Of a DNA stretch of 64,000 bases, positions 19,447-52,200 are shown one piece after another (the stretch's first letter is position 1; each line of letters opens with the position of its first letter). The position numbers were made by a program, and so were the translations under genes. Below the pieces are notes generated by a model that had not been told where the DNA came from, made no database searches, and was given only the letters and a program-made list of their open reading frames with translations. This stretch comes from Raillietiella orientalis. Lineage: Eukaryota. The DNA lies in the NCBI GenBank assembly GCA_036172245.1, contig JAYWIR010000017.1, positions 682,001-746,000 of the forward strand, in the 5' to 3' direction.

Positions 19447-20169
19447 TTCCACGCCACTCGCGGAGGATGCGTGTAATTCTTCAAGATAGGGGGCTCCCCG
19501 GGAGGGGAGTCATCCCTATGAATCTGGGAAAGGGCTCGGATTCCGTTCCTCTCACGCCTGGGGAAGGATTCCTCCGGGAGGGGGGTGGTCCGCTTCATTT
19601 CATTTTCTCCAAAGGGAACCGGAAAGGATGCGCTAGTAGGAATTTCTTCTCCTGAGGGAACTCGCAAGGGAACCGCTCCTGTTCGCTCCTATGAAGAGAA
19701 GCCTGAAGGGACGCTTCCGAAATTTAGAAGGGGCGCTGCTTCCCCGGAGGAATCGCTCGCGCTTCCTTGCACTCTCTGGAGAGGTGGCGACGCACCTGCT
19801 CCGTCAGCACGACTCGGAGGATCCCTCCCCCCCCGCAACGGAGGAGGGTCCGCTCCTTTAAGAACACATCTGGGGAAGTGTCTTTAAGCGCACTTACTCC
19901 ATCTTGAACGAAGCGGAGGAATCCTCCCTGAGTGGGGGCTCCCCTCTCCGTTGCATGGCCGGAGGGGAAACTCCCCACTCCTTGATTATTGGAAGGATCC
20001 GAGGTCTACTCCCCATTGTTCCGGCCTTCATCGGGGACCTCCGGGTTTGAACCGCTACCGGTGCCACTCCCGAATGATTAGGCCAACCATCGCCTTCTTG
20101 CCGGAGTATTCGAACCCGCGACACATGGTGTCACGCGCGGAAGCCGCAACCACAGTCTCCGACGCGGGC
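19447..20169. repeat. GC-rich dispersed repeat, copy 1 (inverted relative to 29478-30199)
   Basis: Shares long blocks with the reverse complement of 29478-30199, e.g. ttccacgccac, gtaattcttcaagataggggg, tccgttcctctcacgcctgggga and ggtttgaaccgctacc. Both copies are about 720 bp. Confidence 0.9.
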
Positions 20170-20434
20170 TATGGAGCGCGAGCACAGGAGGAAACCTTTC
20201 GCTTAAAGAGAAAGCTCTTTAAGCGCTCCAGTATGTTTTTCTTCGTCCTCCAGCAGTATAACTGTAAAGTAGTAGCTAGAAATTCTGGAACATCATAAAA
20301 AAAATTGAATCTTCAATATTTGAACAGAAATTTTTTCTCTTCAGGACGATTTTTCATCGAACTCTATTTCGCAAGCACAGTTCTGCAGGCAATGCAGGAG
20401 ATTCTCAATGATCTTTTCCTTCGATTAGCAACGT

Positions 20435-20568: not shown

Positions 20569-21626
20569 ATTGTTTATGTAGAAGACTCCCTGAATTGTGT
20601 TTTTGTTTACAAACATTAAAAATCTATTCTAAAATGCTGCCCTGCTCCAAACTGAATGCTGAAAACGACTGTTGAAAACCACATCAAAAGATTGGAAGAA
20701 CATCTAGAATTTAGAATTAAATTCGTTCTAGATAATTTTTGCGAAGGGAATCGAAGAGATAATCATCGACAACCGTGTGTTGTTGATGATGCCATCAACT
20801 CTTGAATAATTCCGACTATGGAAGAAGATTATATTGGAAAGAGAAAAAGTTCTAAGAATTTGAAAACCCTGAGTCAAAATTGGAAGAAAATAAATAAGGG
20901 ATGGATTTAGCGCGGGATCTACTCATGATCATCACTTACAGGAGCACTTTAAAGCACAAATACAAAATTTTGGCATTATTCAAAATTTTTCCGAAATATG
21001 CTTATGAAGATACATTAAAGAGCCACATAGAAACCAGTAATACTTTCTGTAGAATATTCTAGTTCTAAGCAGAAGAACAAACCAATACATTATGTACTGG
21101 GATTCAATCTCTTAGTAGAATGTATGCAAAAGTCCTTGGAATTTGTTCGATGCGCAAATAATAATTTAAGTCCTGTGCAAGATCACTATTCGTGTTTGGC
21201 AGTGCCATGAAGATTTGATAGATTTTCTTCTTATCATTTTTTTATGTTAATCAGACGTTATGATTGTAGAAGCGCTCTTTATCACGGAGCTTCACAGGCT
21301 TGGAAATCGTTCAAAGTCTAGGTGGGAGGAGAATCTGAAAACAATGCTGAAAAGTCATGCAAAGTGATTAATTAGTCAGTCAGGTACACGAGAACCATCA
21401 GTCAAAGACCCGGGAACTTTTTCCCAAAAAGATCAGGAAAGGCAATTACCCTGATCCAGCTTTTCATTTCGTCACCCTTGTAGAGATCGATGTATTCAGA
21501 TACTTTCATTAATTTTCAACACAGTGCAAGCATCCCGCAAAACATCTGTGTCATGCAGATAAACGATAAAAACTAAATAAGAGAGGTTTCTTTGGAGAAA
21601 ACCCATAGAGGAAGGAATTGCAAATC

Positions 21627-24600
21627 ATGAACCTTATTCCTTTTTCTGTTTCCCTTTTGGGGTTTGCCTTACAAAGTGAATCATTTGTTCCAAAGTTCAA
21701 CGAAAAATCAGATATATTTGAACTCCATATTATACACATGTCTGATTTCCATGCTCGCATGGAACCGCTACAAGACATCTTCCACTCCTGCAAAAAGGAA
21801 CCCTGCTTCGGAGGAATTGCTAGGAATGTATATATGCTGAAGGAGCTCCAGAAAAAGTACAAAAACAGTATCGTTGTGTCATCAGGAGACTTTTTCTCAG
21901 GATTCGTATGGTTTTCCGTTTTCAACACAACGGTCTTAGTTCCGTTCATGAAACTCCTCCCTTTTACAGCCATGGTATGTATTTCATTATCTGTTTATTT
22001 AAAATGCCTACGATCGTTGGCCTTAAACGAAATGCAAATCTATTCTATTCATTGGGCTGCCATGGGCTGCAAGCAACGTTACTCGAGCAATCGTGTGACA
22101 AATGCTTGGAGCTCATCAAATTCGAATACATGGGCGCTTTCTTTCTTGACTTCATTGCTGGAAATTCTCTCATCTTCTGTTCAGAAGAATGCATCCATTA
22201 CTAGATTAAAAAATTTGTCTTCTGCTGCAAGTTACTGAAAACTTCATGGAAAGGACAGTGCCCCGCAGTCACAAAAGTCGTAGGCAGCATCCAATTCGTT
22301 CGACTGACGTTTTCCGCAGTTTCAATTCGGGGTGCACCTTGAATTAGCCATCCATCGTACTCACTTGCCCTTCCCACAAATGCTTTAATTTCTGTTGAGA
22401 TGAATCCTTTTTACTTATTATCTACGGACTTGGAATATGCAGTACAACTTTTGATTGCATGCCACTTGCTAAGTGAAAAGGCTAAAAAAGCGAGTGTTCG
22501 TTGGGCTTTCTTCCTGAAATTGCAAACAACCTTTGTATGATGTCATCCATAAGTAGCCGAATATCCCAGTGATGTGAATTCAGCCGTTCATTAACAAAAT
22601 GAATGATGTAATGTTAAACTACAACTGTCGTTTTTTCTATATGATGCGCACATTTGCTTCTTTAATGCGCATCAATGCCATGTTTATGAATGTTATTGCT
22701 CTGTTATAAAAACCTTTTATAATGAAAAAATAATATTCATAAACGTTTCCTCTTGTTATGTACATTGCTGAGCGAATCTATAAATATATGTCCAGCACAT
22801 AGATTGATTAAGAGAATAAAGTGAAAAATAAGTAAAATTCTCACTATTTCCCAAGAAAGAGAGAGACGCACATTTCAGTGTACGAAGACTCCTTTAGCGA
22901 AGGTCAGGCGATTCGAGTATTCCTTCAGAGGTCGCTGTTTGAACGAACAACACTCTTGTATAAAAATCGCAGCGTCAAGTAACCCAGGCATAAATCTAAG
23001 TGTAAAAGTTTCTTCAGACTTTTTAAGATTCAGTCTCCAATGCAACCAAAACAACTCAGGATAGCTCAGTATTGGTTTGCCCGCCAAAGCTAATTATCTG
23101 TTGGAAGTACCTGAAGCTTCTAATCCACTCCATATGCTGAGGATGACTTGATTAGGTCGTCAGATTTGGTTTCTGGTTCCCATTGATCCTTTTACACTGC
23201 CACTGTGAACAGAGATCTATCTGCTTTAGATTCTGAATAATTTTTGAACGCCATTGCACTGCCGACACGAAAGCCAAGATAACGGAGCGAACACGTCGTA
23301 TTCTCTCTCAATCTCTCGGACCACAATCCCGCAAGTCAAAGGCATCCATGCAAGAGTTTTCTACCGGAAGCTTCAGTAAAAGCTGTCAATCAAAAAATTT
23401 CTTTCTAGCTGATCAAAGGGATAACATTTTCGTGAGTTCAGAAATTCGAAAAACGGCGTTTAAATCTGAATGGACGGAAACTTTTATTTTTATCAAAATG
23501 CACTTTTTCACACGCCTTTCTTTATGCCATCTGATCATACTTCTATGAATCAGTCTCTTGATGCAAGGTCTTGACTGCATTCTTAGAAGGTGACTACTGT
23601 ATCACACAATGTATTGATGAAGCCTTATTTTTCAAGATCGATGACCTTCAAAAACAGCCCTTTTTTACGCCACTTTTCAGAGATATGCTTGATGGATACA
23701 CTTCACTGATTTTTCAAAAATTTGCAGAGTAATCTTTACTTACTGTTTCTCTTAGATGGCATTTTCTAGTTGAAAATTTTACTGTCTCTCGTGATATTGC
23801 TTGAGGATTTCGGAATTAGTAGACATTAATTGTTGCCTGAACATAATGCTCACATCCTCATTCGAGTCCAGGAAATAATTCTTACTCTAAAGAATCAAGA
23901 AAACTCGTTGGAGAGATGGGCTCGTGAAGTTAGCAGTGCAACTTAGGAATGCAAGATATTCTAGAGAACTTACTCACGCATTTTTAAAATAGGAAATTGC
24001 TCTGTCTTAGTTCCAATGTATCATAAGAATTTACTGAGATATTTGAAAAATATATTGTTACTGATCTATTGCGAAGGGGTTCATCAACTAAGAAGGAGGA
24101 TATAGTTTTTATAGGATGTGGATATAGTTATTCTAATCATGGCAGACACCTCAGGTGCATCTCGGAGTCGAGAGGACGTCATAGGAAGCGATGAGTCCAC
24201 TTGCATTCCATTCTTAGTTTCACTGTCTACAGCAAAACGTCTAAAAATCTGAGATAATGCTGAGCGGCAAAAAATTGGCCGACTGTGTCTAGCTGATATC
24301 AGCAAACAGATTAAAATGTTTCAGTGGTGAGCACCCGAGTAGCGAATGAGAGAAGTTGTGTTCCTACGTAACGCATGCTCCACTCCACGCAGTAAGGCCT
24401 CGATTCCTTTTCAAGTTCTAAAAAGTTGATTAGCAACCCATGTCAGCATTGGTGAAGCACACGAGTAACAACCTCTTTGTTAGTTGGCACACATGACTGG
24501 GATAAAATCGAGATTGCCATCAGTCTGTAGGTGGATTCTCTCAAGTTCTTGTTGCTCAACGGCGTATCGCATCGCAGTCGCTTGGGTAGCAATGCATCTT

Positions 24601-27600
24601 GTCCGAGCTCTTAACAACATGTTTAGGTCTGCTTCTTTGGGAAGGCTTTTTTAGGGAAACAGGATCACGGAGAAAAGACATCGCTGTGTGAACGCCACAG
24701 CAGAAGGAGCCTACGTGACAAAAGATCAACGATGGAATTGAAGAGTAATGATCGATTATCGAGAAGATTTTCTTTGTCCCACTTTAGTTTTGGAATCCAG
24801 GAGAAGGTAAATCAGAACTGCATCAATCTGCTGAGTCCACAGCATCAGAAAAGTTGAATACACGTACGAAAACGATGCTGGATGTGAACATATGAAAAAT
24901 GCGAATGTCGAGAGATCAAACTTAATTAGAGTCAAGAAGAAGGGAGAGGTTGCAGTTTATTCCTATGAAACAGTTATTGGTAAAAGTATTTTTATGAAAA
25001 AATCCAATCTTAGGACCTCTTTAATGGAAGGGATTGCACTCCTTAATGCTCACCTAATATAGATGGATCTGAAGATGCAGGTTTCAGATCATCGCGTTTT
25101 ATTCATTCGAACCCATGGAGAGAAGGACAAATAAACATTTCAATGGTTTCTTAATAATACAAGAGACCAGTACTCCACTCAAAGAACTGGGGAGATATCA
25201 GAGGACACTGCTCCATTTTGCAACTTGTGTGCGGGTTTTTTCTCTCTTGTGCTCTTTATCATGAAAGAACGAAGGGGACTATCCGATTTCTAAAAGCAGC
25301 ATTCACACCCACAAGAGCTCACGAATGCTTGCTTTTGTGAAACATCTCGATCCCTTGAATATATTTCCAAATGAAATGCTATTTGATTCTCTCTCTTTAG
25401 TGTCTTGGAAACCATGAATTTGACCTCGGAGTTGAGACACTGGTTGATTTCTTGGACACTCTTACATTTCCTGTATTACTGACCAATGCGGAAATGTCGG
25501 GAGAACCGGAACTGCAGAAAAAAGTTAAACCCTCCACAATTATAAAAGTGGGAGGAAAGTCCATTGGGATTATGGGATATCTGAGGCCCGAAACAAGCGT
25601 AAGTTGCATTTTAATTGTTTCCTCAGCAGCACTTAAGAATTGATCTGTTCCCTCTTGCAATTAATGTCTCCATGCCTGTTATAAAAAAAAAATTACAGTG
25701 ACTTTCATGTGTGGCTACTCCTTTTTTCTGGAATTGTGATCAGATTTAGGGGGAACCCTGGGAAGAACACAGCTGACCGAACGTTCAAACCCCAGAGCAG
25801 CCCCGTCCTATACAGGCGAAATCGACTACACGTGCAAAAGAGAAGAAAAAAAATCCTCTGCTCGATGAAGCAGCTGTCAAAATATCATCCCACACATTTC
25901 AAAATGAACCTATTGATTTCGTCCATATTCCCATGCGTCAGTAGCAAAGCTTCAGCTTTGTACATGATGACTTCAGAGATATTGTGCAGGAGAGCAGTAA
26001 AGGAGGGATGGGAGTAAGAAGACCAATGAAGGAGGAAAGCAAAAGAGAAAACGAATGACTGCTCCAAGAGCATAAGGATCCTCCAAAAAGAATCAAAGTA
26101 ATCTTAAGCATGGAGTGCAGAACTCGAGAAGCCTCTTCCAAGTTTCTTAGTATCCAAAATCAACAAGAAAACCACGGACAGAGAACAAATCAAGGAGTCT
26201 TCCATAAAGGAAATCCCAAAATCGCCCTACAGTTATATAGAGAATGCAAGGAGAAGACCTTGAGCTCTCTGGAAAAATGTAAGAAACGAATCTTCTAGGA
26301 AACGGTCGTGTCCCCGAGAAAACGTACCTCCCTGAGTCCGTTACAACGAGAGAAAGTAAAGGAGATGAAATAGGACCAAGCTTGCAAGCATACTGAGGAT
26401 AATACTGGGGATGCGAACAGAAAAATAGCAGATCGATGACATGCCATTGAAAATAGCAAGGAAAAAACCCCCCCAAAAAACATACAAAACCAAAAGCAAG
26501 CTAAAAATGATGTCAGTTCCATCGGTGTCTCCAGGAGGCGAAGGATGAAAAACCTTAACCCGGACTGCATTGAGCACTGACTGGCGATAAGTGCCCAGAA
26601 GCAGAGTTCCGATCCCTGAGAGAATTCGATTCTTTTCAAAGGAAATTCTCTTCGAAGGAAGCTGTTTCATCCAAGGCGGCAGCGAGGAACGATGCTGTTT
26701 CCGTCCAAGTTCAGAAGACTGAGCCTCGGACTGGGAAAAAAGAGGGTACCTGAGAAAAACGAATCGATTCAAAGGTTCCGTGAAGAATCGAAGATCCTCG
26801 AAGAAAAGAGCAGCAACTTTCACTAGAGGAATGCTCCCATGGAAGGATAAATAGATACCTCGAAGCAAACGATCAGTGGACCTTCACCTTGAGGGTGAGA
26901 ATGCAGAAAAGAGGGCAACGTAGAATACAATACACATAAACCCCAAATAACAAATCTAAAGATGATGATACGTTTCGTGAATCCTGAAGGGAGAGCGTAA
27001 AAGAATTTATGAGTAATCGTCTCCAGAAGAGTCAGGGGAAAACTGTCGAAGCCAAATCATGAGATAAAGGTGGTAAGATCCAGGACAGTCTGAAAGGAAC
27101 TTCCCGGACAATCACAATCATTGGATTGACAACTCGTTTCCATATCCACATCTGTCCTCCTCTAAGTTCTCTTGAGATTCCTTCCTGCCATTTGTCGTTT
27201 TTAACAAAGATTCTCGAATTCCACGAGAGCCATCTGTGCAGCAATGGCCTTCATATATTTCCTGGGAGATTGAGCGGGGGATAGTTTTTAATGGAGACGC
27301 TCTCTTGTGCTTAGGATGAGGCCTTCACAGGGAAAATCAAATTCGTCGAGGAAGTCAAGGCTTTAAATGAGGAGGCGAAAAGGCTGAGAAGCAAGAAGGT
27401 GGACTTCATCGTGGCCCTCGGACACTCTGGCCTAGATATGGACGAACACATTGCAAAGAACGTACCAGAGATTGATGCGATTGTGGGAGGACACACGCAC
27501 AGCTTTTTTGACTCAGGTACTGCATTTACCACCTTCCACCCACCCTTCTCCCTTCCTTTAAAGTTTCCCTTCTTTCCCCGAGGAAAAAAAAAATTAATCA

Positions 27601-28801
27601 ACTCTCTCCTAGACAAGAATCCTCCGTCAGGAGACAAACCCGTGAGGAAGTATCCCAATATGGTGAGGAACATGATTAACCCCAATAAGGTGATACCAGT
27701 CGTCCATTCGTACGCATATGGAAAGTACGTGGGACATCTCCATCTTGTGTTTAATAAGAACAAGCTACAATCTGCAGAAGGATCCCCTATATTTCTTTCA
27801 CAAGAGATTCCAGAAGGTATCGGTCCCTAAAGGCTCTATTTCTTTTCTTTTTTTCTTCATCTCCTTCTTTCCTTCCATGAAGACAAAGAAACCAAGAAGG
27901 AGCTACAGAAATGGAAAGTTGAATTACAGAAAGTGCTGAAGGAAGTTATCACCGTAACCAAGTACGACATCGATGGCCAAACTTGCAGAGAGAAAGAATG
28001 CATGGCCGGAAACATCCAGACGGACGCTCTGGTGTTCCAGGTTTGAGAGAGAGAGCAATATTGAGATCCCTGTGCTCTTTCGTCTCAAGAATTCTCATGG
28101 GTTCAAAAATTCTCGGGGTGATTGGACAGATGCAGCGATCGCCATTTTGGATGGGGGCACGATGCAAGGTCACGTTCCAGCGGGTAAGTCCTATTGACCG
28201 AGGGAAACACTACCACAAGAGCCCTTAGGCAAGTTCACTATGGAGGATTTGCTAACCATGGCTCCATTCAACAACGAAATATGCAAACTTCAATTAACAG
28301 GAAGCACCTTAAAAGAAGCTCTGGAGCATTCGGTCGAGCATTTCGAGAAGAAGTATCGCGCCGAATTCCTCCAGGTCTCAGGTACAATATAACATGAATG
28401 GTTCTTGATAATTATTCACTTGTTCAGGAATCCACGTCACTTATGACCTGAGCAAACCACCAGGCAATCGCGTTGCAGAAGTCAAAGTCCGCTGTGCCAG
28501 GTGCAAAAAGCCCATCTTTGAAACGTTGGACCTCAAGGCTTCCTACACAGTCCTCACTGTGAAATTTATGTCAGAGGGGAGAGATGGCTTCAGCATGCTC
28601 AGGGGCAAAGACAAGTGTACAGGTTTGAAGTTTCTCCATTAACTTAGACAAAAAGGTATATTTCCGGTTGAACTTCTAGGAAAGTTTACGAATATCGAAT
28701 TCGCAAACTATCTCCGCTCGAAGCCTGAATGGAGTTATAAGACGGAAGGACGCATTACTCTGAAAAAAGATGGTCGAATTCTCAAGACGAAAGAGGCATG
28801 A
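21627..28801 (+). CDS. Secreted 5'-nucleotidase/apyrase (CD73/UshA family), 9 exons, about 557 aa. Exons 21627-21974, 25401-25598, 27315-27516, 27613-27816, 27883-28040, 28090-28183, 28229-28381, 28428-28622, 28680-28801
   Basis: Hydrophobic N-terminal leader. Metallophosphoesterase motifs HMSDFHAR, SGDFFSG, CLGNHEFD, ALGHSG and VGGHTHS. Also AYGKYVGHL, CREKECMAGN, FLQVSGIHVTYDLSKPPGNRV, VRCARCKKP, GRDGF and EGRI. All junctions are GT-AG; spliced length is 1674 nt, divisible by 3. Confidence 0.95.
22050..23260 (-). mobile_element. Possible highly decayed MULE (Mutator-like) transposase remnant inside intron 1 of the 5'-nucleotidase
   Basis: The minus-strand fragment GWLIQGAPRIETAENVSRTNWMLPTTFVTAGHCPFHEVFSNLQQ resembles the PRTNN..EG...HP..W.F...L motif of animal MULEs, with TLAFL upstream. 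Very degenerate. Confidence 0.35.
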
Positions 28802-29477
28802 CATGGCTGAGAAAAAAGAGAAAAAAATTTCAGGATTTTCATTTCCTTCATCAGTGTTGTATGTTAAGATATCAGATAATGCAGAAGAAATACAACAGCG
28901 TCATTTCGCGTAATTCGAAAAGATATTCATTCATGCACACCATTCCTCCAATGTGTTCACTCATCTCATATAAAACAACCAGGAGTGCATAAACGTCACT
29001 GCTCCCAAACCTATTGGCAGCTCTTTTCTCCTTCCAGTTCGTTCTCCATGTCATCAATGTTATCTTCTGAGGTCCTTCGATTTTAGTTATCTGTAGGAAT
29101 CTGATGAAACCAAAGGGAGGCAGAGATGTTTCCGAAGGAACAACTCCCAAGGAAAGAAAATGTTGAACGAAAAATTTGTGAGAAACACAGAAAAAGAAAA
29201 GCACCTTCGAAATCTTCCCATTTCTGGTGCATAAAGAGAAAACCGACAAGGCCCACACATGTCTAAAGAAATTTCCTGAAATCACAAGACTGCTTCAGAT
29301 CTGAAAACACCATTTTAGGTCTAGAAAGGACGTTATTGTTCTGGGGAGTGTTTGCAGAGAGTGTTGATATGTAAAAAAGCTAAAGAGAACTCTTTATAGA
29401 GAGGGACTACAAGGCTGAATGATCCTGGGTGGTTCTGTATAATAGTACGCATACCTGGTGCAATGATCTTTTACGAT

Positions 29478-30199
29478 GCTCGCGTCGGAGGCCGTGTGGT
29501 TACGGTGGTCTCCGCGCGTGGCACTATGCGTCGTGTTCTCCAAAGTAATCGACGCAATGCGTCGTGGGTTCAACCCACAAGATGACGCTGGTTGACCTAC
29601 ATTCATCCGGTTGCGGCGCTGGTAGCGGTTCAAACCGGATGCTCCCGATGAAAGCCGGGACAAATGGGAGTCGACCTCCGGGTTCTTCCAGGAATCACGG
29701 AGTAGGGAGTTCTTCCTCTGGTTGTGGAGGAGAGGACCTCCTATTCTGGGGGAACTCCCCGCGTCGTACTGATGGAGTAGGTGTGTCGCCACCATTTCTC
29801 CAAAGAGTGTCGAGAAGCGAGCCGATCCCTTCGGGGAAGCTGCGTCCTGAATTAAAGAAGCGTCGTTTCTGGGTTCTCTTCAGGGGAGTAAAAACAGGAA
29901 CGGATTCCTTGCGGGAAATCCCTCCGGAGAAAAAACTCCAGGATCGGATCTTTTCCGGGTTCCCTTCAGAGGAGAAAGAATAGAGCGGTCCCCCCAGGGG
30001 GTCCTCTGGAGAATGAGGAAGGAGCTTCCCTTCTGGATTCCCCTTCGGAGACAACCAGGTTGAAGGTGATCTCCATTTCCGGGGATCCCTCCCCAGGCGT
30101 GAGAGGAACGGACTCCGAGTCCTTCCGGGATCCATAGGGCGGACTCCTCCCGGGGTACCCCCTATCTTGAAGAATTACCCACCCTTGGGTGGCGTGGAA
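29478..30199. repeat. GC-rich dispersed repeat, copy 2 (inverted relative to 19447-20169)
   Basis: Reverse-complement similarity to copy 1 along its whole length. The ORF translations are also similar (TLWRGGDAPAPSARLG versus TLWRNGGDTPTPSVRRG; GLNRY in both). Confidence 0.9.
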
Positions 30200-37719: not shown

Positions 37720-39628
37720 CATTCAAGATATGGGGTGGCAATAGCAGCAACTATTTCGTAAAGAGTGGCTCAAGTGAAGTACTGCTTAAAGACTGGATCT
37801 TAGAAATTCCGAGAAGTGCTGATAAAGCTAAATACAAATTTTGCAAATGCATACTGGCTGCAACACACTGAGATCTATTTTCTCATGGCAAAACGGAGAA
37901 GCATCAGACGGCTGACGCTACATATTCTTCTTCATGAGCACTGGACACTTTTGGTTCAACAAACAAAGATTCTGAAAACGCAGCTGAAGCGTCTTTAAGT
38001 CTTTTCATATCAATAAGAACAGTAGACGATCCCAGAGAACTGTGTATTCTCGGATCATGTAATTGCAAATTGTAATTCCAACTACATCGTCCTAAGCGTA
38101 CCGCTATAATAAGTTTCATAGTGGCATCTCACTTTGTAAAGGCTCTTCTTGATGATATAGGAATTGGTCCTTCCAGTGTTTTAACTGATAAATCCAACGA
38201 TATTCGTGTTACTAAAATGCTAGGAGTCAGTCGGGAAATTATCAGTCAGGAAAAATAGAATCTACTTTTTTAGCATTGGCTGAACTTGACACCTGTGATG
38301 TTGAATCTATTGCTGCTACTGTGAGGGAAACACTTGGTAGTAAAAGATTAAACATGCAAAACATAAAAAGTATTGAAGTCGAAAATGCGACTGTCATGAG
38401 TGGCATAAACGATGGCGTGTGCGCTAAACTGCAGAAGGAATGCCCAGGGCTTGCAATGATCCGTTGCGTATTCACTCTCCAATTGGCTGTCTCTGCAGCC
38501 TCAGATTGCCTTCCTGCTAATATTGACTCTTTAGTGAGAAACCTATAATTGATTTTCCCATTCTGCCTTACGGGAAAATGATTACAAAGCTCTATTTGCT
38601 GCCATGAATGATGGGCACAATCCTAGAAATTCTGTACAGAGGTTCCAGACTCGTTGGCTGTCGATTGAAACTGCAATAAACAGAATTCTGGATCAGTGGG
38701 TAGAAGCTCAGTACTATGTTTAAAATTGCGAGTACAAGAGAGAGAGATTACACAACATCCCTTTTGAATTTTAAGCTTTCTGATGGGAAAAACCTCGCAT
38801 TTCTCCTTTTCCTTCGACCAGTATTGCCCGACATGCAAGGGGCGAACAAATCATTCGAGGCAAGTAATGCCGATCATATTAAGTTCTTGCATGACCTGGC
38901 TGGTTTGGTGGAGAACACGGCCAAGAAGTTTGTGCTTCCGACATGCAAGAAGGAATTCCAAACAGAAAATCTTGATAACTATGTGCTCTGGGGTTCCTAT
39001 CTGGGCTATGAAGTTGAGGAGAAACTACATCAACTCAAACTGCCAGCAGAAGAAGAAACTGACTTCAGAAAAAGGTGCAATATCTTCCTTATTAGGTTAC
39101 ATAAGGGGCTTCAAGCAAGACTGCCTGATAATATGAGAGCGCTAAGATCAATGTGAATAATTTCTGTCTCGTGCTCTTCTTTTTGTCAGGTGTCCATTGA
39201 TACCCCTAATGCAGCATCTCCGAATTCCATCAGAGAAGATAGCAAAAGCAGAAATCCAGTGGACCAATTTAACAAGTGCAAAGTGGGAGAAAACTGCCAG
39301 TACAATTGAATTCTGGAGTGGAGTAGTTAATTATCAAGACTCGTCTGATGTCAATTCATTTGGAAAGTTGGCTGAAGTAGTGACATCTCTCATTGTTCTT
39401 CCATGGTCTAATGTTCAAGTGGAAAGAATCTTCAGCTTGATGAACGTCGTGAAGTCAAAACTACGAAACCGTATGGGAACGGCAATGGTCAATGCAATTC
39501 TCACAATGAGGGAAGGTCTAGAGCGCTCTAACAAATTCTGCAAGGATTATCAATTGTCATCAGAGGTTTTGAGGAAAATAGGAACCTTGGCTGCCTATAG
39601 AAATGAAAGTGGACAAGCTGAGAACTAA
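37720..39628 (+). mobile_element. hAT-family DNA transposase pseudogene
   Basis: BED-like LKDWILEIP..ADKAKYKFCKC, SVLTDKSND (first catalytic D region), ENATVMSGINDGV, IRCVFTLQLAVS (degraded CxxH), TRWLSI, and the hATC dimerisation region EFWSGV...LPWSNVQVERIFSLMNVVKSKLRNRM. Several frameshifts and stops; no convincing TIR pair found. Confidence 0.9.
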
Positions 39629-43467: not shown

Positions 43468-45900
43468 CTAATGGGGTATTTTCGGCTGGTAGCAGTTAGT
43501 GCCATAGAAAAAGGGTTTTATTGCATCCATTTTTTGCCAACCTGAGAGTTCACTTTCAAGTATGGCATTCGCTTTTTGGCAGATGTCTTCCTTGGTGGGT
43601 TGTATGTTGAAGACCCTCACACTGAAGGGTTTTCCCAAGTATTTGTATGCCTGTGATAAGGCAATACAAGGGATTTTGTTTTCCTTTACCTGGATGCCCA
43701 CGTCTCTTATACCTTTGGGGATTTTGCCGCTGTAGCATATCGAGGCGCATTTTGCCGGGTTAATGGATAAGCCGGCTTGGTCGACTAATGTCTGGAAATG
43801 CGCCATCATTTCTTGGACTTTCTCCTCATCCTTCCCCAGTATGACGATGTCGTCTGCGTAGGCTAACGTGATATCGTTCCCGTAGTTTTGCCTCATCGAG
43901 CGCAGATGGGTTCAATCGAGATGATAAAGAGGAGTGAGCTTAAGGGACATCCCTGCTTCACTCCGCGCCGCACGGAGAACGTCCTGGTTTCGGTGTTTTC
44001 CAGTTGAATGAAGGGGGAAATTCCTCTATTTATCCCTTCAACGATATTTATTATTTCCTACCTGGCCCCTGCTTCCTTCAGTGTTCCCATGATTGTGTCT
44101 GGGAAACTGTGCCGAAGGCATTTGCAAAGTCGATAAGTACCGCTCAAAAGTCCTTCGACAAGCGACGTGCAGCACCCAGTCTTGTTTGTAGGATGAAATT
44201 CTGTTCAAGCACTCCGTCAAAGGCCAGGAAGCCCTTCTGTTGAGTGCCGATAATCTCATTTTCCAGAATCCATCTTCTGATTCGGGAGGCCAAGCATTTG
44301 GCATACAGGATGTAAGCACTGTTGCCAATGGATATTGGCCTCCAGCTGGAGATGTCATCTGCTGCTGTGGTTTTTTGCTATGAGTACCGTTCTGGTACAT
44401 TTTCACTCTTCTGGAATCCGACGAAACCTTTTTAGAATATTGAAAATTATTGCGAGCATTTCGGCCTCTGGATCAATGCTCTTCCATCCAGCGTACGTGA
44501 TTCCATCTCCGGGCGATGAATTTTCCGCACGCCGCAGTATCGCCGCTACCTCCTCTTGAGTGAATGGAGATAGGTCTACGGGGGATGCTGCTTGGGTTCT
44601 TCCCAGCAGCATCTTCTTGGGAAGCTCTTTATCAGCTTCCTGTTCCATCTCAAGTTCATTTCGAAAGTGCCTTTCAACCTTGTCAACTTCCAACTTACAG
44701 GTCGTGCTCTGCTGGCCTAAAATCGCTCTAACTGCTCTTCTCCTATTAATGTTGTAAAGCTTTTGGATTGACGATCTGTTCGGGTCCATCCTTGGTTTCT
44801 TCCCGCCTTTCCTTTCTGCTTTTACTTTAAGTATCTCCTGGATTTTGACTGTCACCTTTTGATATATCAGAAGTCCTCCCAACGAGGCCTTTCTTCGTCC
44901 AGGATCCTCTGGAGATAGCTTCGCTCCTCCGAACTTGGAGGCATAGTTCGCTCTCCATGTCGGCTTTCTTTTCCTGCCTTTCGGTTTCCATATCTTCTGT
45001 ATGGCTTCCATTTTACTCGTTCCTTCTGGAGTTCTTTGCTTTCATGAGCCACTGTGGCTGAGGGAGGATGGTCTGGGAGGAGAGGAGAATCACACCATAC
45101 TTTGTAATCGATATGAGCGGGCTGCAATTGTTCCTTTTCCGTGTTTTCTTCCGTTCGATCTTTGATCAGAGTGCCTATGAATGCTTCCAAGTTGCCAAAC
45201 AGCCCTCCTTCATCTCCTTCTTCTAGGGGGGGAATCTCGAGTATTGGCCCCAGCGAGGTATCCTCCTCTTGTTTCTTTGCTTTCTCAGCATTCCTTTTCT
45301 GGCCTTCTTCTCCAAGTATATCTGTGGAAGGAGTTTCCATCTGCACCATGCTTCCTTCGCTGTCAGGTTGCAGCTCGCTCATGCCAGATATGATGGCTTA
45401 GCAGGCCCTTTCTCGTCGAAAAGGCCATGCCGTATCTGGTCTGGCACAGACAAACCTGGACACCCGTACCGTTACTACGGGGGCAGGCGAGGAGGGTTTT
45501 CCATCGCAAACATGGTACGAAGGTCTTGTTAAAAGTATGTCAGCATTAACATCTCCTACACTTGTATTTCATTGACACATCTTCCATTCTATGCAAGCTC
45601 ATCATATGCTTCTTCATTTCTGTACCTGGAGTCGAACCAGTGCTGCCCTTGATTCGCATCCTGCGACGCCACAGGCCATTGTGGGAACCAATGGATAAAG
45701 TAAGGTGACCGCGCGTTTGCAGATCCCAATCTACTTTTTCCATGGTTTCCACGTCCTCTTCTCTTCCATTTTGCTCCGACGCGGGCAATATTTCGTTGAA
45801 GAAACAAAAAAGCACTAAATGCTGTCACAGCTTGAGGATCATTCTTGATGTTGTTCTCCATGAAAAATGGGTTGTATTTTATGTACAATGGGTACAATTT
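43468..45900 (-). mobile_element. NeSL/Utopia-like (R2 group) non-LTR retrotransposon, frameshifted and 3'-truncated (no RLE endonuclease seen)
   Basis: N-terminal zinc-finger remnant KKHMMSLH...KYKCRRC and IQKLYNINRRRAVRAILG. RT motifs SSPGDGITY, WRPISIGN, QKGFLAFDGVLEQNF, DFANAFG, GVKQGCPLS, LAYADDIV (43849-43860), GLSINPAKC, YKYLG and LSGWQKMDAIK. Confidence 0.88.
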
Positions 45901-46449
45901 ATATTATGTACTTTACGATTCACTTTATCTTTGGTTGTAAAGTAGTCTGTTCTAAGTGATACGTTTAGTGGTTCGGAAAAAGGCGTTGTTGGTTTTTTAG
46001 ATTTTGCAACTCCATTACTGCAACAAAAAAAATGTACCTTGTATGAAGTTCGGCCTCAATTCTAGCTCTTGGCTGACTTATTACGAAATCTCTTCTCTTG
46101 AGAACCATTCATATGATTGCAAGTTTTCCGATTATTTACTCGAAATTGCATTTATTATTTGGGATTATGCGTTGGTTTAAAACTGAGATACTGAAATGTA
46201 AGCAGTAAAACATGCATGATACTGTTGTTGGTCGCTGTTCTGATCCCGGTCCTGAGAAGGAAAAGAATAGCTATGCATGACTTATTTATGATGAAAACGT
46301 ATTTGTAAAAACGAAAAATGAAATGTCTCTTAATTGCAAGCATTTAAATAGATTAGATTGAATCCAAAGTATGGCATTCACTTTTCTGTCAAGATTGGGA
46401 CTTCATAAGCTTGTAGATATATCTATCAGGCATTATGATTCCTGAAGTG

Positions 46450-46850
46450 AGTATCAAATATTGATGAAGACGTGAGTAATTTTGTTCAGTACGGGAACGA
46501 TGTGGCTTCGATGATAAGGGAGAAGTTCAAGGAGCTGATCTCCAAGGATGAGAGCACCAATGCGAAGAACAGGGGCGGATCAGATTGTAGTAGTGAGAAA
46601 ATTTTTGTAATGGAGATGGAGCGAAGGAGCTGAGTTATTTAGTTTTAATTATTTATCAGCCGGAAGGGAGGAGTGAATGAATAAAACAAAGTCTTCTGAT
46701 ATACCGAAGCAACTAATTTGGACAGCTTATAAATAAGTATCGAAAAATAAAGGTGCTGAGGGTGTAGATGAGGTTTCGATAACAAAGTTTGAGGAAAATC
46801 TAAAAAAAAATCTGTGCAAACTATGGAATCGGATGTCATCTGGAATGTAG
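46450..46850 (+). mobile_element. Fragment of a bacterial group II intron (class D-like ribozyme segment plus RT/maturase N-terminus), Wolbachia-like and pseudogenised
   Basis: The upstream sequence cgatgataagggagaagttcaag...gagagcaccaatgcgaagaacaggggcggatcagattgtagtagtgag...gtaatggagatggagcgaagg resembles conserved group IIB ribozyme sequence 5' of the ORF. GGAGG at 46667-46671 precedes ATG 46677. Translation is MNKTKSSDIPKQLIWTAYK*VSKNKGAEGVDEVSITKFEENLKKNLCKLWNRMSSG, the group II RT0 region. Confidence 0.9.
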
Positions 46851-46949
46851 GCAGATGATCTGTAGCCAATTGCAGTGGATAATCTGTTATACAACTTAAT
46901 GATGGATACTGATGTTAAGTCCAGGGATCGCTTTTGCAATTTAAGGAGA

Positions 46950-46990
46950 CAAAATATTTTGCATCATCCCCGATGATGCAAAATATTTTG
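46950..46990. other. Perfect 19-bp inverted repeat with a 3-nt loop
   Basis: caaaatattttgcatcatc-ccc-gatgatgcaaaatattttg. Confidence 0.9.
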
Positions 46991-48699
46991 ACTCTCAAAA
47001 GTAGTCGAAAGATTTTTATGTCCGAGTTTTTGATAAGAATTGCAATTGTGGTGTAACAGTTTGTAAATGGAGATTCAACGTGAGAGAGGTCATGGGATCA
47101 TCACAATGCATAAACAGCAGTCCGATTTAAGGTCACGTCCGAAAGCATTCCGTGCTAATAATACATATCAGGGGATATTTTCAGCGAAACTTCTCTGGCT
47201 GATCAGTTGGATACAGTTCAGATTAGGTTTCAGTGCTAGGGATTTTTGGAACTTGTGGCGAGTAGCAGGACAGTACAAACATATTTCTCATTTTCAATTT
47301 GATCGAATCAGAATAACTTTAACAACAGACTCGGAATATACAAGACTTTGAAAGTTTATATTGGTTTGTCAGGACGAAATAATTGACAAACTGTTGCATG
47401 TCTTAGGCTTGTAGATGTGATGGTTTGGTTACAGAAGCAGTAATGCTTCAATATGTAATAACTTTCATAGAGTAATACCTTTTTCCTATTCAAAACAAAT
47501 TTTTATTGCTGGGATTGTAACCGTTTGACGTTGCTGCCTTATTTTCGAGATAGTGAGATCTATGAACCAAGGAACCTTTGGTGATGGAGTCGCTGTTGAT
47601 ATTTTCAGTAGTTTGTAAACCCTGTCATCAGGTAAATGTCGAAGAAAGGGTTTGTCACTTTCCATTCTCTACAATCTTTCCATAGAGTTTAGATGGAAAA
47701 TAATACTCTTGTGCACTTTTACGTACAGTTTTGAATCACTTATGAAATCATAAAGCATTTTGCTCAACATTTGCCTGGCATTCCTAGAACACTGCAATTT
47801 TCCACTCGTAGTTTCGGGAAATAATTCGTTCTTCTGGAACATTCAGGACAATAAGAATAGTCTTTTGTTTTTCTAAGTGTTCACATTTTTGAGATCCTAA
47901 TCCCTGAGATTGAGGAGTTGCGTGATCTCCATTAAAGACTGTGTGCTCCGGTAGATTCCAACAACACCATGTTCTGCCCAGAGATAAAAAAGTAATCTAT
48001 TGCACTTGTTTTTTTGTGTGTGAGAAGTTATGCTCTTATAGTATCAAACTGTTGTTCCTTTAGTAAAATATTTTCTTATTTAATCATTAGGAAGAATTGA
48101 GTGTTTCTGAATCTGTTTCTTAACTTTTGATATCTATGAGCAGATCTTCGTTTTCGTATCCGTCGCCGCTCCTTTCCTATAGAAACTCTAGCTAGAAAGA
48201 TTCCTTCCTTTCTAGTGGAAATTCAATGCATTTTAATTTCAGCGTCCTCTAATGCAAATTCTGTTTGCATTATTTGGAGTTTTCAAATCTTCATAAGGGT
48301 GTATGGAAGCAGGAAAAATAGGATTTTCTTCTATTCCAGTATCAATTCAGAGTTGTTTTTTTCCTTCAGTTTTGTTCCCGTTCCTACTTGCGGACTGAAG
48401 AACTCTGTCGTTCCCTCCATCCCATTTCTGCACACCTAGGACTAGTATCTTCCGTGCTTTCTGTGCTCTCTCCATCCAGTACCGAGTCTGCAGTCCTCCT
48501 GCAGGATGGTTTCTTAGATCATCGAACTGATAGGCATGGTACTAATTTCCTTGAGGAAGATGTAGAAAGAAGTAGAGTGAAGCGAAAAATGAAGAATGAT
48601 GGTGAAGAATGAAGTTCGAACGAGGGTCATTCTAGAAACCTCAGAGAATTCTTTGACGCATTATTTCACGGCATAATTCACATTTTACATAGAAGCCGA

Positions 48700-49200
48700 A
48701 CTGAGCGGAAGTGACTTTGTCTTGTGGTGACGACGATGCTGCTACTAGAAACAGACGGATTGAACCACCATCAGGGAAACCAGAGGGCACATGCTCATTT
48801 GCTGCTGTCAACATTTTGAGATAAAGAACTTACAAAGATGTGATGGATCAAATCATTTTTGGAACACTTTGTAAATGTTAAAATAAATCTCAACAGTTAT
48901 GCTCTAGTCTTCTAGGAAGCGGAATCTAATCGGAAATCCAGAAGCACTTTTGGAAAGCTTACATTTACCTCTACTAGGAAATGCAATTGGAGAGTATCTT
49001 GAAGTCAGCAGTTCTAGTTGAAAGCAGCTGGGAACTTTACCAAGCAGTGCTCTTTAAGAGTTTAAGAGGATGCCCAGTATCCATGGTTCATTGATCTTCA
49101 ATAATATGCTCCAAAAGCTGAAGGCCAGATAGCCACTTTGGACCTTTTACATCAAATATGGCTCTGTGCTTCATATTCACGAGTCAACTAATTCATCGTT
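48700..49200 (+). mobile_element. Possible P-element/THAP9-like transposase remnant
   Basis: LICCCQHFE resembles the THAP C..HF motif, and LQ*YAPKA...IW resembles the P-transposase L.fYSPKAY motif. Very degenerate. Confidence 0.3.
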
Positions 49201-52200
49201 AGGGTTAGATCGCCTTTACTTTAGTATATCACACTTCTGAACGGCACAGAAAATTGCCCCTTGAATTGGAATCCTTAACAGGCCTGAAAAGTACCTACTT
49301 CTCACCCAATTCGTTTCAGTTCCCATGTATCTTAGCGTAACGGGCAACACGTCAGTCAGCTCGAAACCGGGGGACTTTGATACAACCAATTTGTCAACCT
49401 GCTACGTTGTAATCTACTAGAAAAAACGAATATTCGATGCTCAAATTCTTTTCCGATTCTTTCCATCTGTTTTTGATTTGAAGCACGTAACAGAACCTCT
49501 TATTCTCTTGTGATGGCTTTATGCAGCAGTTTGAGAATTTTACATTTCCTCGTTGCTTGATGATTTCTCGTTCTGATGTAATCATCAATAGCTGTAAATG
49601 TTGTTGATTATATGAGATTCTGAAAAACTAGAAAATTTGAAAATGTCTGTAGCTGAGTTTTGTTTGAAATGCTTGCCACACCATGGACGATCAAAGATTC
49701 AGGTACATATTCTAACAAGGAGCATCCTTGCACTAAGACCTGAATCCCTCTAGTCATCTTCCTTACTGTCTCCCTATCTTAAAGCACATAGTTTAGACAT
49801 GCCAAGTTTATCCGGAAAAGATTTTTGACGCCATTTTTGGCTTCATATTGCCCCATTTTCAGGGAAATTCCGTCTCCACTTTCTGATTGGGCCCTGATTC
49901 TAGGATAAGGTAACTGACCACCTGACTGGTTCCCATCGGGGATCTCAATTCCTCAAGAGCTCTAGAATATGGAAGATGTGGTACTCTGTTGTAGTCTTCC
50001 GTATTCTTGGTGGCTGATGCATCTCTTTCAGCTTTCAGGCTCAAGGAGTGTGCCTCGAAGTTTCAGTTCTTTTTCGGAGAGAGCAGGTTGCAAACTAGCA
50101 AATTCCATGGTTTGCCCTTCGTTTTATTTTTACAAAATGTGATTATTCCGTATAAAAACGGGATTTTTTCAGGTGTGCCTTTTTCTTCTCTCTTCAAGTG
50201 ATATTGAGGTAGTGTTTGAAATCTATACCAAAAAATGAAGAAAAGAGCATTTCTAGCAAGCAAACTGTCACCAATGATATAATGTTGTTATCGATTAGAC
50301 TCACACCCAAGTATTTTGGATGTGCTTCACATAGAAAAAAACATGCCCCGTAAATGTGAAACTAATTATTACCTGAGCTCATCAGAGATCATAATTTGCA
50401 CAGCGTTATGTGACAGATTCAATTACAGGAGAGCTCATAGCAGTGTCTCTGCTTTCCTTTCTGCGTTGGCAAAGTTGACAGTATGGGAAATCTTGAGAAG
50501 CATCTTTTGAAGGATAAATAAAAACAGCTGTCAATGTTTCTCAAAACAACCACTATAGGAGTCTCCAGAGATGTGTTTGAAAATATAATTGATTCATATT
50601 AGAAAGTTAAGACATTAGGCTCTTAAACGTGACAGTGTAGAGATAATAGAGAACAGGATTAAAAATCGCATTACTTTGCTATAATTATCTGGTTTCCTTG
50701 TATTCCTTTGCTAAGGACGAGGCTCACAGGCCGCAGTATTTCCTAGAAGCAAGTTCTCCCTAGCAGTGTCACTTTACACTTTGGAAAGCACTTTTATGTT
50801 GAACTCAAGAAAAAGGAAGTAATTATTTCCAATCCTTTAGACACTGTTCGATCTCTTTCAGATTAAAGAAGCTGCGACAGATGAGCATCATGTGGTCTAA
50901 GCAGTTAGAAAAGAATAAATAGATTGGTTTTCTTTGTTATAAGATGAAATGCACGACAATATTCAAATAAAAAATGAAGCAGACCAAGAAGGGCATTTGA
51001 AATATATGTAGGATAGGAACGATCATCTGTATACTAAGTGGATTCTAATCTCTGCCGCTTTCAAACGATGCACTTGTTTAAGGTGTCTTGTTTGCACTCA
51101 GATTAGACATGGTATGCATTTTGATGAAGCATTTGGATCCGAAAGGAGTTGCGCATGATAATTAATGTACGTTTAGTGAAGTCGAGGAAAAACGAAAAGA
51201 GAAAGGGAAGCGTTTGATTTCATAATGAACATAACATTCCATTCTGATATGAAGTGACCAGATGAGCTATTCCGAAGAGAGAGTAATATTACCAAGTTTC
51301 TTTCGAATCATTTGAGACCTTTTTTTCGATAAAAATTATCCTTTCCAATGGAATGCAGTAACTCAATAATTGAGTTGCCTTCGCAAAACCATAGTATCCT
51401 AGGTTCATACCAAGAAAATGGTTCTGGTCTAGTTTCTTGTAGTAAACTTCAGTTCCTATGTTGAACATTCTTCATCTCTCAAAAGTCATTTTAAAATACT
51501 GTCACACTCTTTAGTTATGTTGCACAAATTTAGTTCTGGCCTAATTTTGATTGTTACATAAAGTATTGAACTTACTGCAGTATATACGAGTATTTAGAGA
51601 AGTTTTAAGTACAGGTATATGTGTTTAAAATAACCTCTCCAACATAATGTGAATGTATCTTAACTTGTGAACACATACGTACATAAGAGTGCATGAACTC
51701 ATATATATGTTTGTCACCCCATTTATACACACATATACACACTATATTTACCTGTACGCTTATTCAAATGGATATGCATTATTAAGCCAAGTTGGTTTTG
51801 TATTTGTACTTGAAAATGCATGCATTTGTGAATGTATATGCACATATATTAGTATTACTATACTGAAATGTATAGTTCATTCAATAAGTAGAAATAGATC
51901 ATGAATATACAAGTACATCCGTATATGTAGCATATATATATTTTAAAATAGTTAAGGTAATATCGATGCAGTTGTGTGAATTATTAGTGTGAATATGGTA
52001 TGTCAAATATGCTATGATTTATTTATGCTGTGTAACTTAGAGAACATGCCATCCTAAATACAAAAAAGCATGTTTGCGTGTTCCTTTGTTTTTTACTTCA
52101 AAAACAATTTGGAAAAACATGCTGAAGATTTGTTAGAATAATAAAGGAAACGTTGAATCATTAGAAAACTCGGTGTTAGAATGGTTTCTTTTCATATTGT

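What the first reader, a model, noticed from the sequence alone, without database searches (positions are those of the whole stretch)
46450..46850. Wolbachia-like group II intron fragment in the animal nuclear genome (endosymbiont-to-host transfer)
Seen: ribozyme-type sequence, a GGAGG Shine-Dalgarno site, then MNKTKSSDIPKQLIWTAYK*VSKNKGAEGVDEVSITKFEENLKKNLCKLWNRMSSG with a premature TAA at 46734, ending abruptly at about 46845. It lies between a eukaryotic retroelement and spliced host genes and is absent from the ORF track. Established: group II introns are not native to animal nuclear genomes. From memory, this peptide is nearly identical to the N-terminus of the Wolbachia group II intron RT. 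Inference: a nuclear Wolbachia transfer recording present or past infection. The stop codon and truncation favour real integration over contamination, and the missing 3' part suggests DNA-level capture rather than retrohoming.
Basis: partly seen in the sequence, partly recalled or inferred. Interest (0 to 1): 0.8.

Follow-up and report, generated by a model that had tools for sequence, protein, structure and literature searches.

The report
Decayed Wolbachia intron fragment in arthropod DNA
A 356-base broken piece of a mobile intron of the kind carried by Wolbachia bacteria sits inside ordinary arthropod chromosomal DNA, an inert molecular fossil of a well-known kind that records a present or past infection.

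Summary
Window 46490-46845 (+), not 46450-46850, is an internal piece of a bacterial group II intron. It holds 187 nt of structured intron RNA, a GGAGG site (46667-46671) and the first 56 codons of the reverse transcriptase/maturase (ATG 46677), with CAA>TAA at 46734.

The peptide matches NCBIfam TIGR04416 (E 1.9e-10). It is 84-91% identical to Wolbachia group II intron RTs; 32 of the 36 hits that carry an organism name are Wolbachia. The DNA is 86.6-88.5% identical to three Wolbachia-type introns. Identity drops to chance (8-12 of 40 bases) exactly at both edges, and both edges lie inside the intron. Domain I, domain V/VI and about 360 RT codons are missing.

The copy shows a nonsense codon, amino-acid-changing substitutions and a terminal branch 2-3 times longer than its relatives. 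The flanks show no bacterial or transposon protein family, and arthropod genes and transposons lie on both sides.

The best reading is a small, dead nuclear Wolbachia insert taken up as DNA, not by retrohoming. I could not check the junctions with reads: no host genome or host run is held. This is a known phenomenon and of low interest, unless the host lineage proves to have no known Wolbachia.

The parts
46490..46676 (+). 187 nt of non-coding group II intron RNA. By position this is the region between domain I and the ORF start, probably DII, DIII and the DIVa stem; that labelling is inferred, not modelled.
   Evidence: 86.6-88.5% identity over 46490-46845 to L003:433-789, L004:269-625 and L040:121-475. 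25 of 45 predicted pairs show compensatory changes across 12 introns, and the window row keeps 42 of 45 pairs. No Rfam match in the window.
46667..46671 (+). GGAGG Shine-Dalgarno-type site, 5 nt before the ATG. It is inherited from the bacterial intron.
   Evidence: Read. The GGGAGGA block is invariant in all 12 aligned introns.
46677..46844 (+). First 56 codons of the intron-encoded reverse transcriptase/maturase. About 360 downstream codons are missing.
   Evidence: TIGR04416 positions 1-46 of 353, E 1.9e-10, 40.4 bits against a cutoff of 300. 91% identical to residues 1-56 of P0001, a 416-aa protein. The full-length relatives continue SYFPEP....
46734..46736 (+). Premature TAA (CAA>TAA, Gln20>stop). 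It is private to this copy.
   Evidence: C at 46734 makes up all depth in runs X1, X7 and X12, and 25894.6 of 25943.1 in X13. Q or R stands at this residue in L003, L004 and L040.
46489..46490 (.). Left junction between host DNA and the intron fragment. The break lies inside the intron, at least 432 nt from its 5' end in L003.
   Evidence: The 40 nt outside match the references at 10-12 of 40, against about 88% inside. In L003, RF01999 (domain I) lies at 141-254, upstream of the break.
46845..46846 (.). Right junction between the intron fragment and host DNA. The break lies inside the RT ORF, after codon 56.
   Evidence: The 40 nt outside match at 8-11 of 40. Contigs from other runs continue GTTATTTTCC..., as the intact introns do.

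Best explanation
Window 46490-46845 is a dead nuclear fossil of a Wolbachia-type bacterial group II intron, lying in intergenic or intronic DNA of an arthropod chromosome.

Inferred history: DNA released from an intracellular Wolbachia, or a very close relative, was joined into a germ-line chromosome break by host end-joining. This is how NUMTs and other nuclear Wolbachia inserts arise. Only an internal 356-bp piece is present. It was either captured at that size or is what remains of a larger insert.

It cannot splice, because domains I, V and VI are absent. It cannot encode an RT: only 56 of about 415 codons remain, and codon 20 is a stop. It cannot move. Since insertion it has drifted neutrally. 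It has no function; its value is as a marker of a present or past Wolbachia infection in this lineage.

Shown here: identity, donor affinity, the breakpoints, loss of the essential parts, signs of decay, and host context. Inferred: the end-joining mechanism, the germ-line timing and the age.
For: Family:
- TIGR04416 E 1.9e-10.
- 104 plasmid records match, at 60-80% identity; most of the listed rows lie under genes annotated ltrA or group II intron RT/maturase.

Donor:
- 75 proteins at E<=0.001. 32 of the 36 that carry an organism name are Wolbachia, at 84-91% identity. The other four are a beetle-assembly protein (Euwallacea similis, 89%), a 'Pseudomonadati' multispecies entry, a Hymenobacter MAG fragment (84%) and a Spiroplasma endosymbiont (77%).
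- DNA is 86.6-88.5% identical to L003, L004 and L040, whose RTs are 82-95% identical to a named Wolbachia RT. The next best locus is 70%.
- The ML tree of 42 rows places the window in a 4-row clade with these three, support 98/96.

Sharp internal breakpoints. Essential intron parts lie outside the retained piece.

Decay:
- TAA at codon 20.
- 23 private differences (22 substitutions and a 1-nt insertion), against 6-10 in each reference.
- Terminal branch 0.10, against 0.03-0.05.
- The private ORF changes fall 2/3/2 on codon positions 1/2/3. The window differs from the references at 6-8 amino acids, whereas the references differ mainly at third positions (for example 2/1/9, 1 aa).
- Four runs from four organisms and four studies carry intact-type copies. 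These read C where the window has the stop-making T, and they run on into the intact ORF beyond 46845.

Host context:
- Sec3/EXOC1, Ipi1_N, Metallophos, hAT and RVT_1 domains occur elsewhere in the window.
- The EXOC1 exon is 66-75% identical to arthropod proteins, with decapods best.
- No N in the window.
- No bacterial family (NCBIfam) in 45590-46489 or 46846-52045, and no Pfam family in 45590-46489 or 46846-48045.
- No plasmid DNA match in the immediate flanks.
- No other intron piece in the 64 kb.
Against: - The junctions are supported only by the assembly. No whole genome is held, and no public run holds more than 0.04 of the sampled words. Independent reads across 46489/46490 and 46845/46846 were therefore never seen.
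- The three DNA references are unnamed metagenome contigs. They are called Wolbachia-type only through their RT's identity to named Wolbachia proteins.
- The 11-13% DNA divergence could partly reflect an unsampled donor lineage and not decay in the host.
- RNA pairing in the window copy (42 of 45 pairs) is no worse than in the references (41-45 of 45), so that measure shows no decay.
- The codon-position counts are small (7 private ORF changes).
- The copy number of the fragment in the host genome is unknown.
Confidence: 0.85

Rival explanations
1. Assembly artefact: reads from a Wolbachia infecting the sequenced animal were wrongly stitched into a host contig.
For: Wolbachia reads are common in arthropod sequencing data. 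The junctions could not be checked with reads.
Against: The piece is only 356 bp and lies in the middle of 64 kb without N, with host genes and transposons on both sides. Both ends are internal to the intron. It carries a stop codon, four other amino-acid changes against its nearest protein P0001, and a branch 2-3 times longer than the intact-type copies. Intact-type copies in four other runs read C at 46734, so a live bacterial copy would not be expected to look like this one.
Confidence: 0.04
2. The donor was not Wolbachia but another intracellular bacterium (Spiroplasma, Rickettsia, 'Megaera' or an unsampled Anaplasmataceae) carrying a related intron.
For: A Spiroplasma endosymbiont protein is 77% identical. 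Rickettsiales plasmids carry related introns at 66-68% DNA identity. The window is still 11-13% from the nearest DNA. Introns move between co-infecting symbionts; this last point is established knowledge that I recalled, not a call result.
Against: All hits at 84% identity or above that name a bacterial organism are Wolbachia, apart from one partial MAG protein labelled Hymenobacter and one multispecies entry. The window lies inside the Wolbachia-type clade, not beside it, with support 98/96.
Confidence: 0.07
3. The fragment is not a primary insert. It reached this locus secondarily, as cargo of a host transposon or segmental duplication that had captured part of an older Wolbachia insert.
For: The neighbourhood is rich in transposons: a LINE-like RT at 43468-45400 (-) and a hAT remnant at 38216-39628. 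A 23-nt-arm hairpin lies 100 nt downstream.
Against: There are no terminal inverted or direct repeats bracketing the fragment beyond chance-sized matches. There is no transposase or RT domain within 900 nt to the left or 1200 nt to the right. The fragment lies about 600 nt from the LINE's 5' end and on the opposite strand, which does not fit a template-switch chimera. There is no second copy in the window.
Confidence: 0.08
4. Product of intron mobility in the nucleus, through retrohoming or retrotransposition of intron RNA.
For: Group II introns are retroelements.
Against: Target-primed reverse transcription starts at the intron's 3' end. Abortive products therefore keep domains V and VI and lose the 5' end; this is established mechanism that I recalled. 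Here the 3' two-thirds is missing, including RF00029, and so is the 5' end.
Confidence: 0.01

Closest known systems
Group II introns of Wolbachia genomes. About 25-29 intron-associated genes, roughly 1% of the genome, occur in the wVul strains (PMC11376236, passages read). Leclercq et al. 2011 is cited there; I did not read it.
   Same: 84-91% identity over the RT N-terminus and 87-89% DNA identity. The SD site, start codon and upstream RNA helices are the same.
   Different: Only 356 bp of an element of roughly 1.9 kb or more. Domains I, V and VI are absent, there is no RT, X/maturase or later domain, and codon 20 is a stop. It sits in eukaryotic DNA.
[quoted passage not shown]
   Same: Bacterial DNA embedded in host chromosome sequence, pseudogenised, with no sign of function.
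   Different: Very small, and made only of mobile-element sequence. The host species is unidentified, and the junctions are not validated by reads or PCR.
Sirex noctilio woodwasp remnants of Wolbachia transfer, which include an ORF similar to group II intron RT/maturase (PMC8962096, passages read).
   Same: A Wolbachia-derived group II intron RT sequence in an arthropod genome. This is a direct precedent.
   Different: There it is part of a multi-gene insert confirmed by PCR in wasps reported as free of Wolbachia. Here it is an isolated 356-bp piece, and no neighbouring bacterial gene was detected.
'protein YkfC-like' of Euwallacea similis, a 408-aa protein on a 5.35-Mb contig of a beetle assembly (P0013).
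   Same: 89% identical over the 56 residues. It is another Wolbachia-type RT annotated in an animal assembly.
   Different: Full-length open ORF with the RVT_1 and GIIM domains. I did not examine whether it is integrated or contamination.
f element of Armadillidium vulgare (PMC5541319).
   Same: Transfer from Wolbachia to the nucleus of an arthropod.
   Different: The f element is about 3 Mb, recent, mostly intact and functionally important in sex determination. This piece is 356 bp, decayed and inert.

Membership tests
Bacterial group II intron (functional mobile element) | Sequence homology to intron RNA and IEP gene | tested here: met
   blastn E 1e-118 to 1e-127 to L003, L004 and L040. TIGR04416 E 1.9e-10.
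Bacterial group II intron (functional mobile element) | Catalytic domain V/VI (Rfam RF00029) | tested here: not met
   No Rfam hit in the window at gathering score, nor at E<=10 in 46000-47300. RF00029 is present in L003 and L004 about 1.1 kb beyond the breakpoint.
Bacterial group II intron (functional mobile element) | Domain I with exon-binding sites (Rfam group-II-D1D4-2 in the relatives) | tested here: not met
   RF01999 lies at L003:141-254, upstream of the retained part L003:433-789. It is absent from the window.
Bacterial group II intron (functional mobile element) | Complete RT/maturase ORF (about 410 aa, RVT_1 plus GIIM) | tested here: not met
   Only 56 codons with an internal TAA. 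40.4 bits against a cutoff of 300. tblastn with four full-length RTs finds no further piece of the RT in the window; the only other hits are weak chance-level ones (E 0.017 or worse).
Nuclear Wolbachia insert (endosymbiont-to-host DNA transfer) | Sequence nested within Wolbachia diversity | tested here: met
   32 of 36 organism-named hits are Wolbachia, at 84-91%. Clade with three Wolbachia-type introns, support 98/96. The references themselves are unnamed contigs.
Nuclear Wolbachia insert (endosymbiont-to-host DNA transfer) | Host DNA on both sides in one continuous sequence | tested here: met
   Sharp loss of homology at both edges. The flanks show no NCBIfam family (45590-46489, 46846-52045), no Pfam family (45590-46489, 46846-48045) and no plasmid DNA match. 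Arthropod genes and transposons lie in the window.
Nuclear Wolbachia insert (endosymbiont-to-host DNA transfer) | Junctions confirmed by independent reads, PCR or a second assembly | not testable with these tools
   No genome is held. No run holds the locus, best share 0.04. The contigs laid are bacterial-type copies only.
Nuclear Wolbachia insert (endosymbiont-to-host DNA transfer) | Evolution without bacterial constraint (pseudogenisation) | tested here: met
   Stop codon, excess of amino-acid changes and a long branch. RNA pairing gave no signal either way.

The most novel reading that the evidence does not exclude
The host may belong to an arthropod lineage in which Wolbachia is not known today. 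Its EXOC1 exon is at most 75% identical to any protein in the database, with decapod crustaceans nearest. If so, this decayed fragment would be the only trace of an ancient infection. Its 22 private substitutions in 356 bp, together with the orthologous locus in related species, would then date when Wolbachia was present in that lineage.
Probability: 0.12. Interest if true: 0.5.

Novelty: new member of a known kind. Interest (0 to 1): 0.25.

Why it matters
Such fossils show that a lineage was once infected with Wolbachia, even if living animals are not infected now. They can also give false positives in PCR or read-based Wolbachia screens and in contamination filters.

This one is tiny and inert, so its value is as an annotation and as an infection marker. 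It is also a reminder that multi-copy mobile elements of the symbiont are likely to be among the pieces transferred. It does not change what is known about group II introns or about gene transfer.

Tried and rejected
**Searches that gave nothing or could not run**
- Whole-genome search of the host: no genome is held.
- The genome search centred on 'Wolbachia': the tool needs a genome handle, so the call errored. As a result I never compared the window with complete, named Wolbachia genomes.
- Genome-contig scan with the window peptide: it found only an Actinomycetes MAG at 61%. Four of the five search patterns contained substitutions private to the window, so Wolbachia genomes were missed.
- Viral-contig scan with P0001: one hit at 25% identity, irrelevant.
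- Phage collection: no match.

**Sequencing runs**
- The look-up of sequencing runs: 22 rows, all at share 0.04, and no RNA holder listed.
- Four of those runs were laid. They cover only 46507-46845, and no contig covers the flanks apart from three short low-depth patches in X13. This absence of cover is no evidence either way about the host locus.

**Host identification**
- The TEX10-like exon found nothing.
- The Atlas gave no taxon.
- The EXOC1 exon gave only 'arthropod, decapods nearest at 75%'.

**Other checks**
I reduced it to 48046-52045, in addition to the flanks. The rest of the window was not scanned for other bacterial pieces, except with the intron itself.
- RNA-pair breakage as a measure of decay gave no difference from the references.
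- Pfam hits CENP-N and Pox_D5 to the peptide fall below their cutoffs and I treat them as chance.
- Weak plant-miRNA Rfam hits at 46934-47010 (27.5 bits or less, against gathering scores of 53-140) only reflect a generic hairpin.
- Earlier-findings look-ups returned nothing.
- I did not consult paper supplements. Table S7 of PMC11376236 (intron genes of the wVul strains) might hold closer relatives.

Full report
**1. Observation**

GGAGG lies at 46667-46671, 5 nt before the ATG. The window contains no N.

**2. What the sequence is**

- The 57-residue peptide matches NCBIfam TIGR04416, group II intron reverse transcriptase/maturase. It covers profile positions 1-46 of 353 at E 1.9e-10 and 40.4 bits, against a full-length cutoff of 300. 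It is therefore an N-terminal fragment.
- Pfam gives only sub-threshold chance hits.
- A word-seeded search for longer proteins returned 75 hits at E<=0.001. Of the 36 whose source names an organism, 32 are Wolbachia, at 84-91% identity. The best is P0001, from a Wolbachia of Drosophila bicornuta, at 91%.
- The other four are a beetle-assembly protein (Euwallacea similis 'YkfC-like', 89%), a multispecies 'Pseudomonadati' entry (86%), a partial Hymenobacter MAG protein (84%) and a Spiroplasma endosymbiont protein (77%).
- Full-length relatives have 408-425 residues and continue '...NRMSSG SYFPEP...'. The window therefore keeps codons 1-56 only.

**3. Extent and breakpoints**

- A metagenome scan with P0001 gave 80 loci. 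Three encode RTs 82-95% identical to P0001: L003, L004 and L040.
- blastn places window 46490-46845 on L003:433-789, L004:269-625 and L040:121-475, at 86.6%, 88.5% and 87.9% identity. The next best locus is 70%.
- Outside these limits the 40 adjoining bases match the three references at 10-12 of 40 on the left and 8-11 of 40 on the right, which is chance level. The segment therefore starts at 46490, not 46450, and ends at 46845.
- In L003 the domain I motif RF01999 lies at 141-254 and domain V (RF00029) starts at 1871. In L004, RF00029 lies at 1699-1774. Both are outside the retained part.
- The window itself has no Rfam match at gathering score, nor at E<=10 for any intron family.
- The 187 nt before the ATG are nevertheless real intron RNA. 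In an alignment of 12 introns, 25 of 45 predicted pairs carry compensatory changes.
- No other piece of the intron or its RT occurs anywhere in the 64 kb.

**4. Donor**

An ML tree of the 356-bp region used 42 rows. These are the window plus the 41 fetched loci whose blastn match spanned more than 300 nt of the fragment and could be extended to its full span. The tree puts the window inside a 4-row clade with L003, L004 and L040, with support 98/96.

Related introns on plasmids of Aquicella, Clostridium, 'Megaera', Neochlamydia and a Rickettsia endosymbiont are 66-71% identical. Wolbachia is thus the best-supported donor.

One caveat applies. The DNA references are unnamed contigs, and I could not compare with complete named Wolbachia genomes.

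**5. Decay**

- Against the three references, the window has 23 private differences: 22 substitutions and a one-base insertion. Each reference has 6-10.
- Its terminal branch is 0.10, against 0.03-0.05 for the references.
- In the ORF part, its 7 private changes fall 2/3/2 on codon positions 1/2/3, and one of them creates the stop.
- The window differs from the references at 6-8 of 56 residues. The references differ from each other at 1-4 residues, mostly through third-position changes, for example 2/1/9.
- Contigs from four public runs (four coded organisms, four studies) were laid at 80% likeness or above. They carry intact-type copies that read C at 46734 in all depth in X1, X7 and X12, and in 25894.6 of 25943.1 in X13.
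- Where they reach 46845, those contigs run on as GTTATTTTCC..., the normal continuation of the ORF.
- One measure gave no signal. The window keeps 42 of 45 RNA pairs, within the range of 41-45 seen in the other rows.

**6. Context**

- The window is eukaryotic. Pfam finds Ipi1_N (4892-5614), Sec3_C-term (10327-10674, minus strand), Metallophos exons (21609-22238 and 27315-27830), a hAT dimerisation domain (39161-39628) and a LINE-type RVT_1 (43468-43911, minus strand).
- The Sec3/EXOC1 exon is 63-75% identical to animal EXOC1 proteins. Decapod crustaceans are best at 73-75%, followed by beetles, an isopod (71%), bugs and spiders. The host is an arthropod that I cannot place further.
- GC is 0.39 in the fragment, and 0.37 in the 1 kb on each side.
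- Six-frame translations of 45590-46489 and 46846-52045 hit no NCBIfam family. Those of 45590-46489 and 46846-48045 hit no Pfam family.
- The immediate flanks match no plasmid DNA.
- No repeats bracket the fragment. It is an isolated piece.

**7. Mechanism**

Both intron ends are missing, including the 3' end where target-primed reverse transcription would begin. This is therefore not a retrohoming product. The pattern fits capture of a bacterial DNA fragment by host end-joining, as for NUMTs and other Wolbachia inserts; that step is inferred. I cannot tell whether the insert was originally larger and was later eroded.

Assembly chimerism is unlikely, given the small size, the internal breakpoints, the private stop codon and the long branch. 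It was not excluded with reads: no host genome or host run is available.

**8. Comparison with what is known**

- Transfer of Wolbachia DNA to host nuclei is well documented, and most transferred genes are neutrally evolving fossils (PMC5541319, abstract and passages).
- A Wolbachia-derived ORF similar to group II intron RT/maturase was reported among transfer remnants in the woodwasp Sirex noctilio (PMC8962096, passages).
- Wolbachia genomes carry tens of intron-associated genes, about 1% of the genome in the wVul strains (PMC11376236, passages). Intron pieces are therefore expected among transferred fragments.

**9. Verdict**

The finding is a new member of a known kind and of low interest, unless the host turns out to be a lineage without known Wolbachia.

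Noticed in passing
window 46946-46994: Near-perfect hairpin about 100 nt downstream of the fragment: 23-nt arms, 3-nt loop, 96% complementary. Its only Rfam hits are weak matches to plant and animal miRNA-precursor models (27.5 bits or less, against gathering scores of 53-140), so it looks like a generic hairpin, possibly a transposon end.
   Followed up: partly
window 43468-45400 (-), with a GC drop near 45800: Broken LINE-like retroelement: an RVT_1 domain and several overlapping ORFs in different frames. GC falls from about 0.47 to about 0.34 just beyond its 5' side. The intron fragment lies about 600 nt further on, on the other strand.
   Followed up: partly
window 38216-39628 (+): hAT-type transposase remnant (Dimer_Tnp_hAT, E 2.7e-5), split over several frames.
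   Followed up: no
window 19212-20298 and 29394-30174: Two stretches with long overlapping ORFs on both strands give similar-looking Pro/Gly/Ser-rich translations. They lie on either side of the 5'-nucleotidase-like exons and may be two copies of one repeat family. I did not align them.
   Followed up: no
window 4892-6320 (+), 10327-12875 (-), 21609-27830 (+): Host gene exons: Ipi1/TEX10-like, EXOC1/Sec3 and a calcineurin-like phosphoesterase, possibly of the 5'-nucleotidase type (my reading of the translations). The TEX10-like exon found no relative in the word-seeded search, which suggests a poorly sampled host lineage.
   Followed up: partly
P0013: A full-length 408-aa Wolbachia-type group II RT is annotated as 'protein YkfC-like' on a 5.35-Mb contig of the beetle Euwallacea similis. 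It may be another transfer or contamination in a public animal assembly.
   Followed up: no
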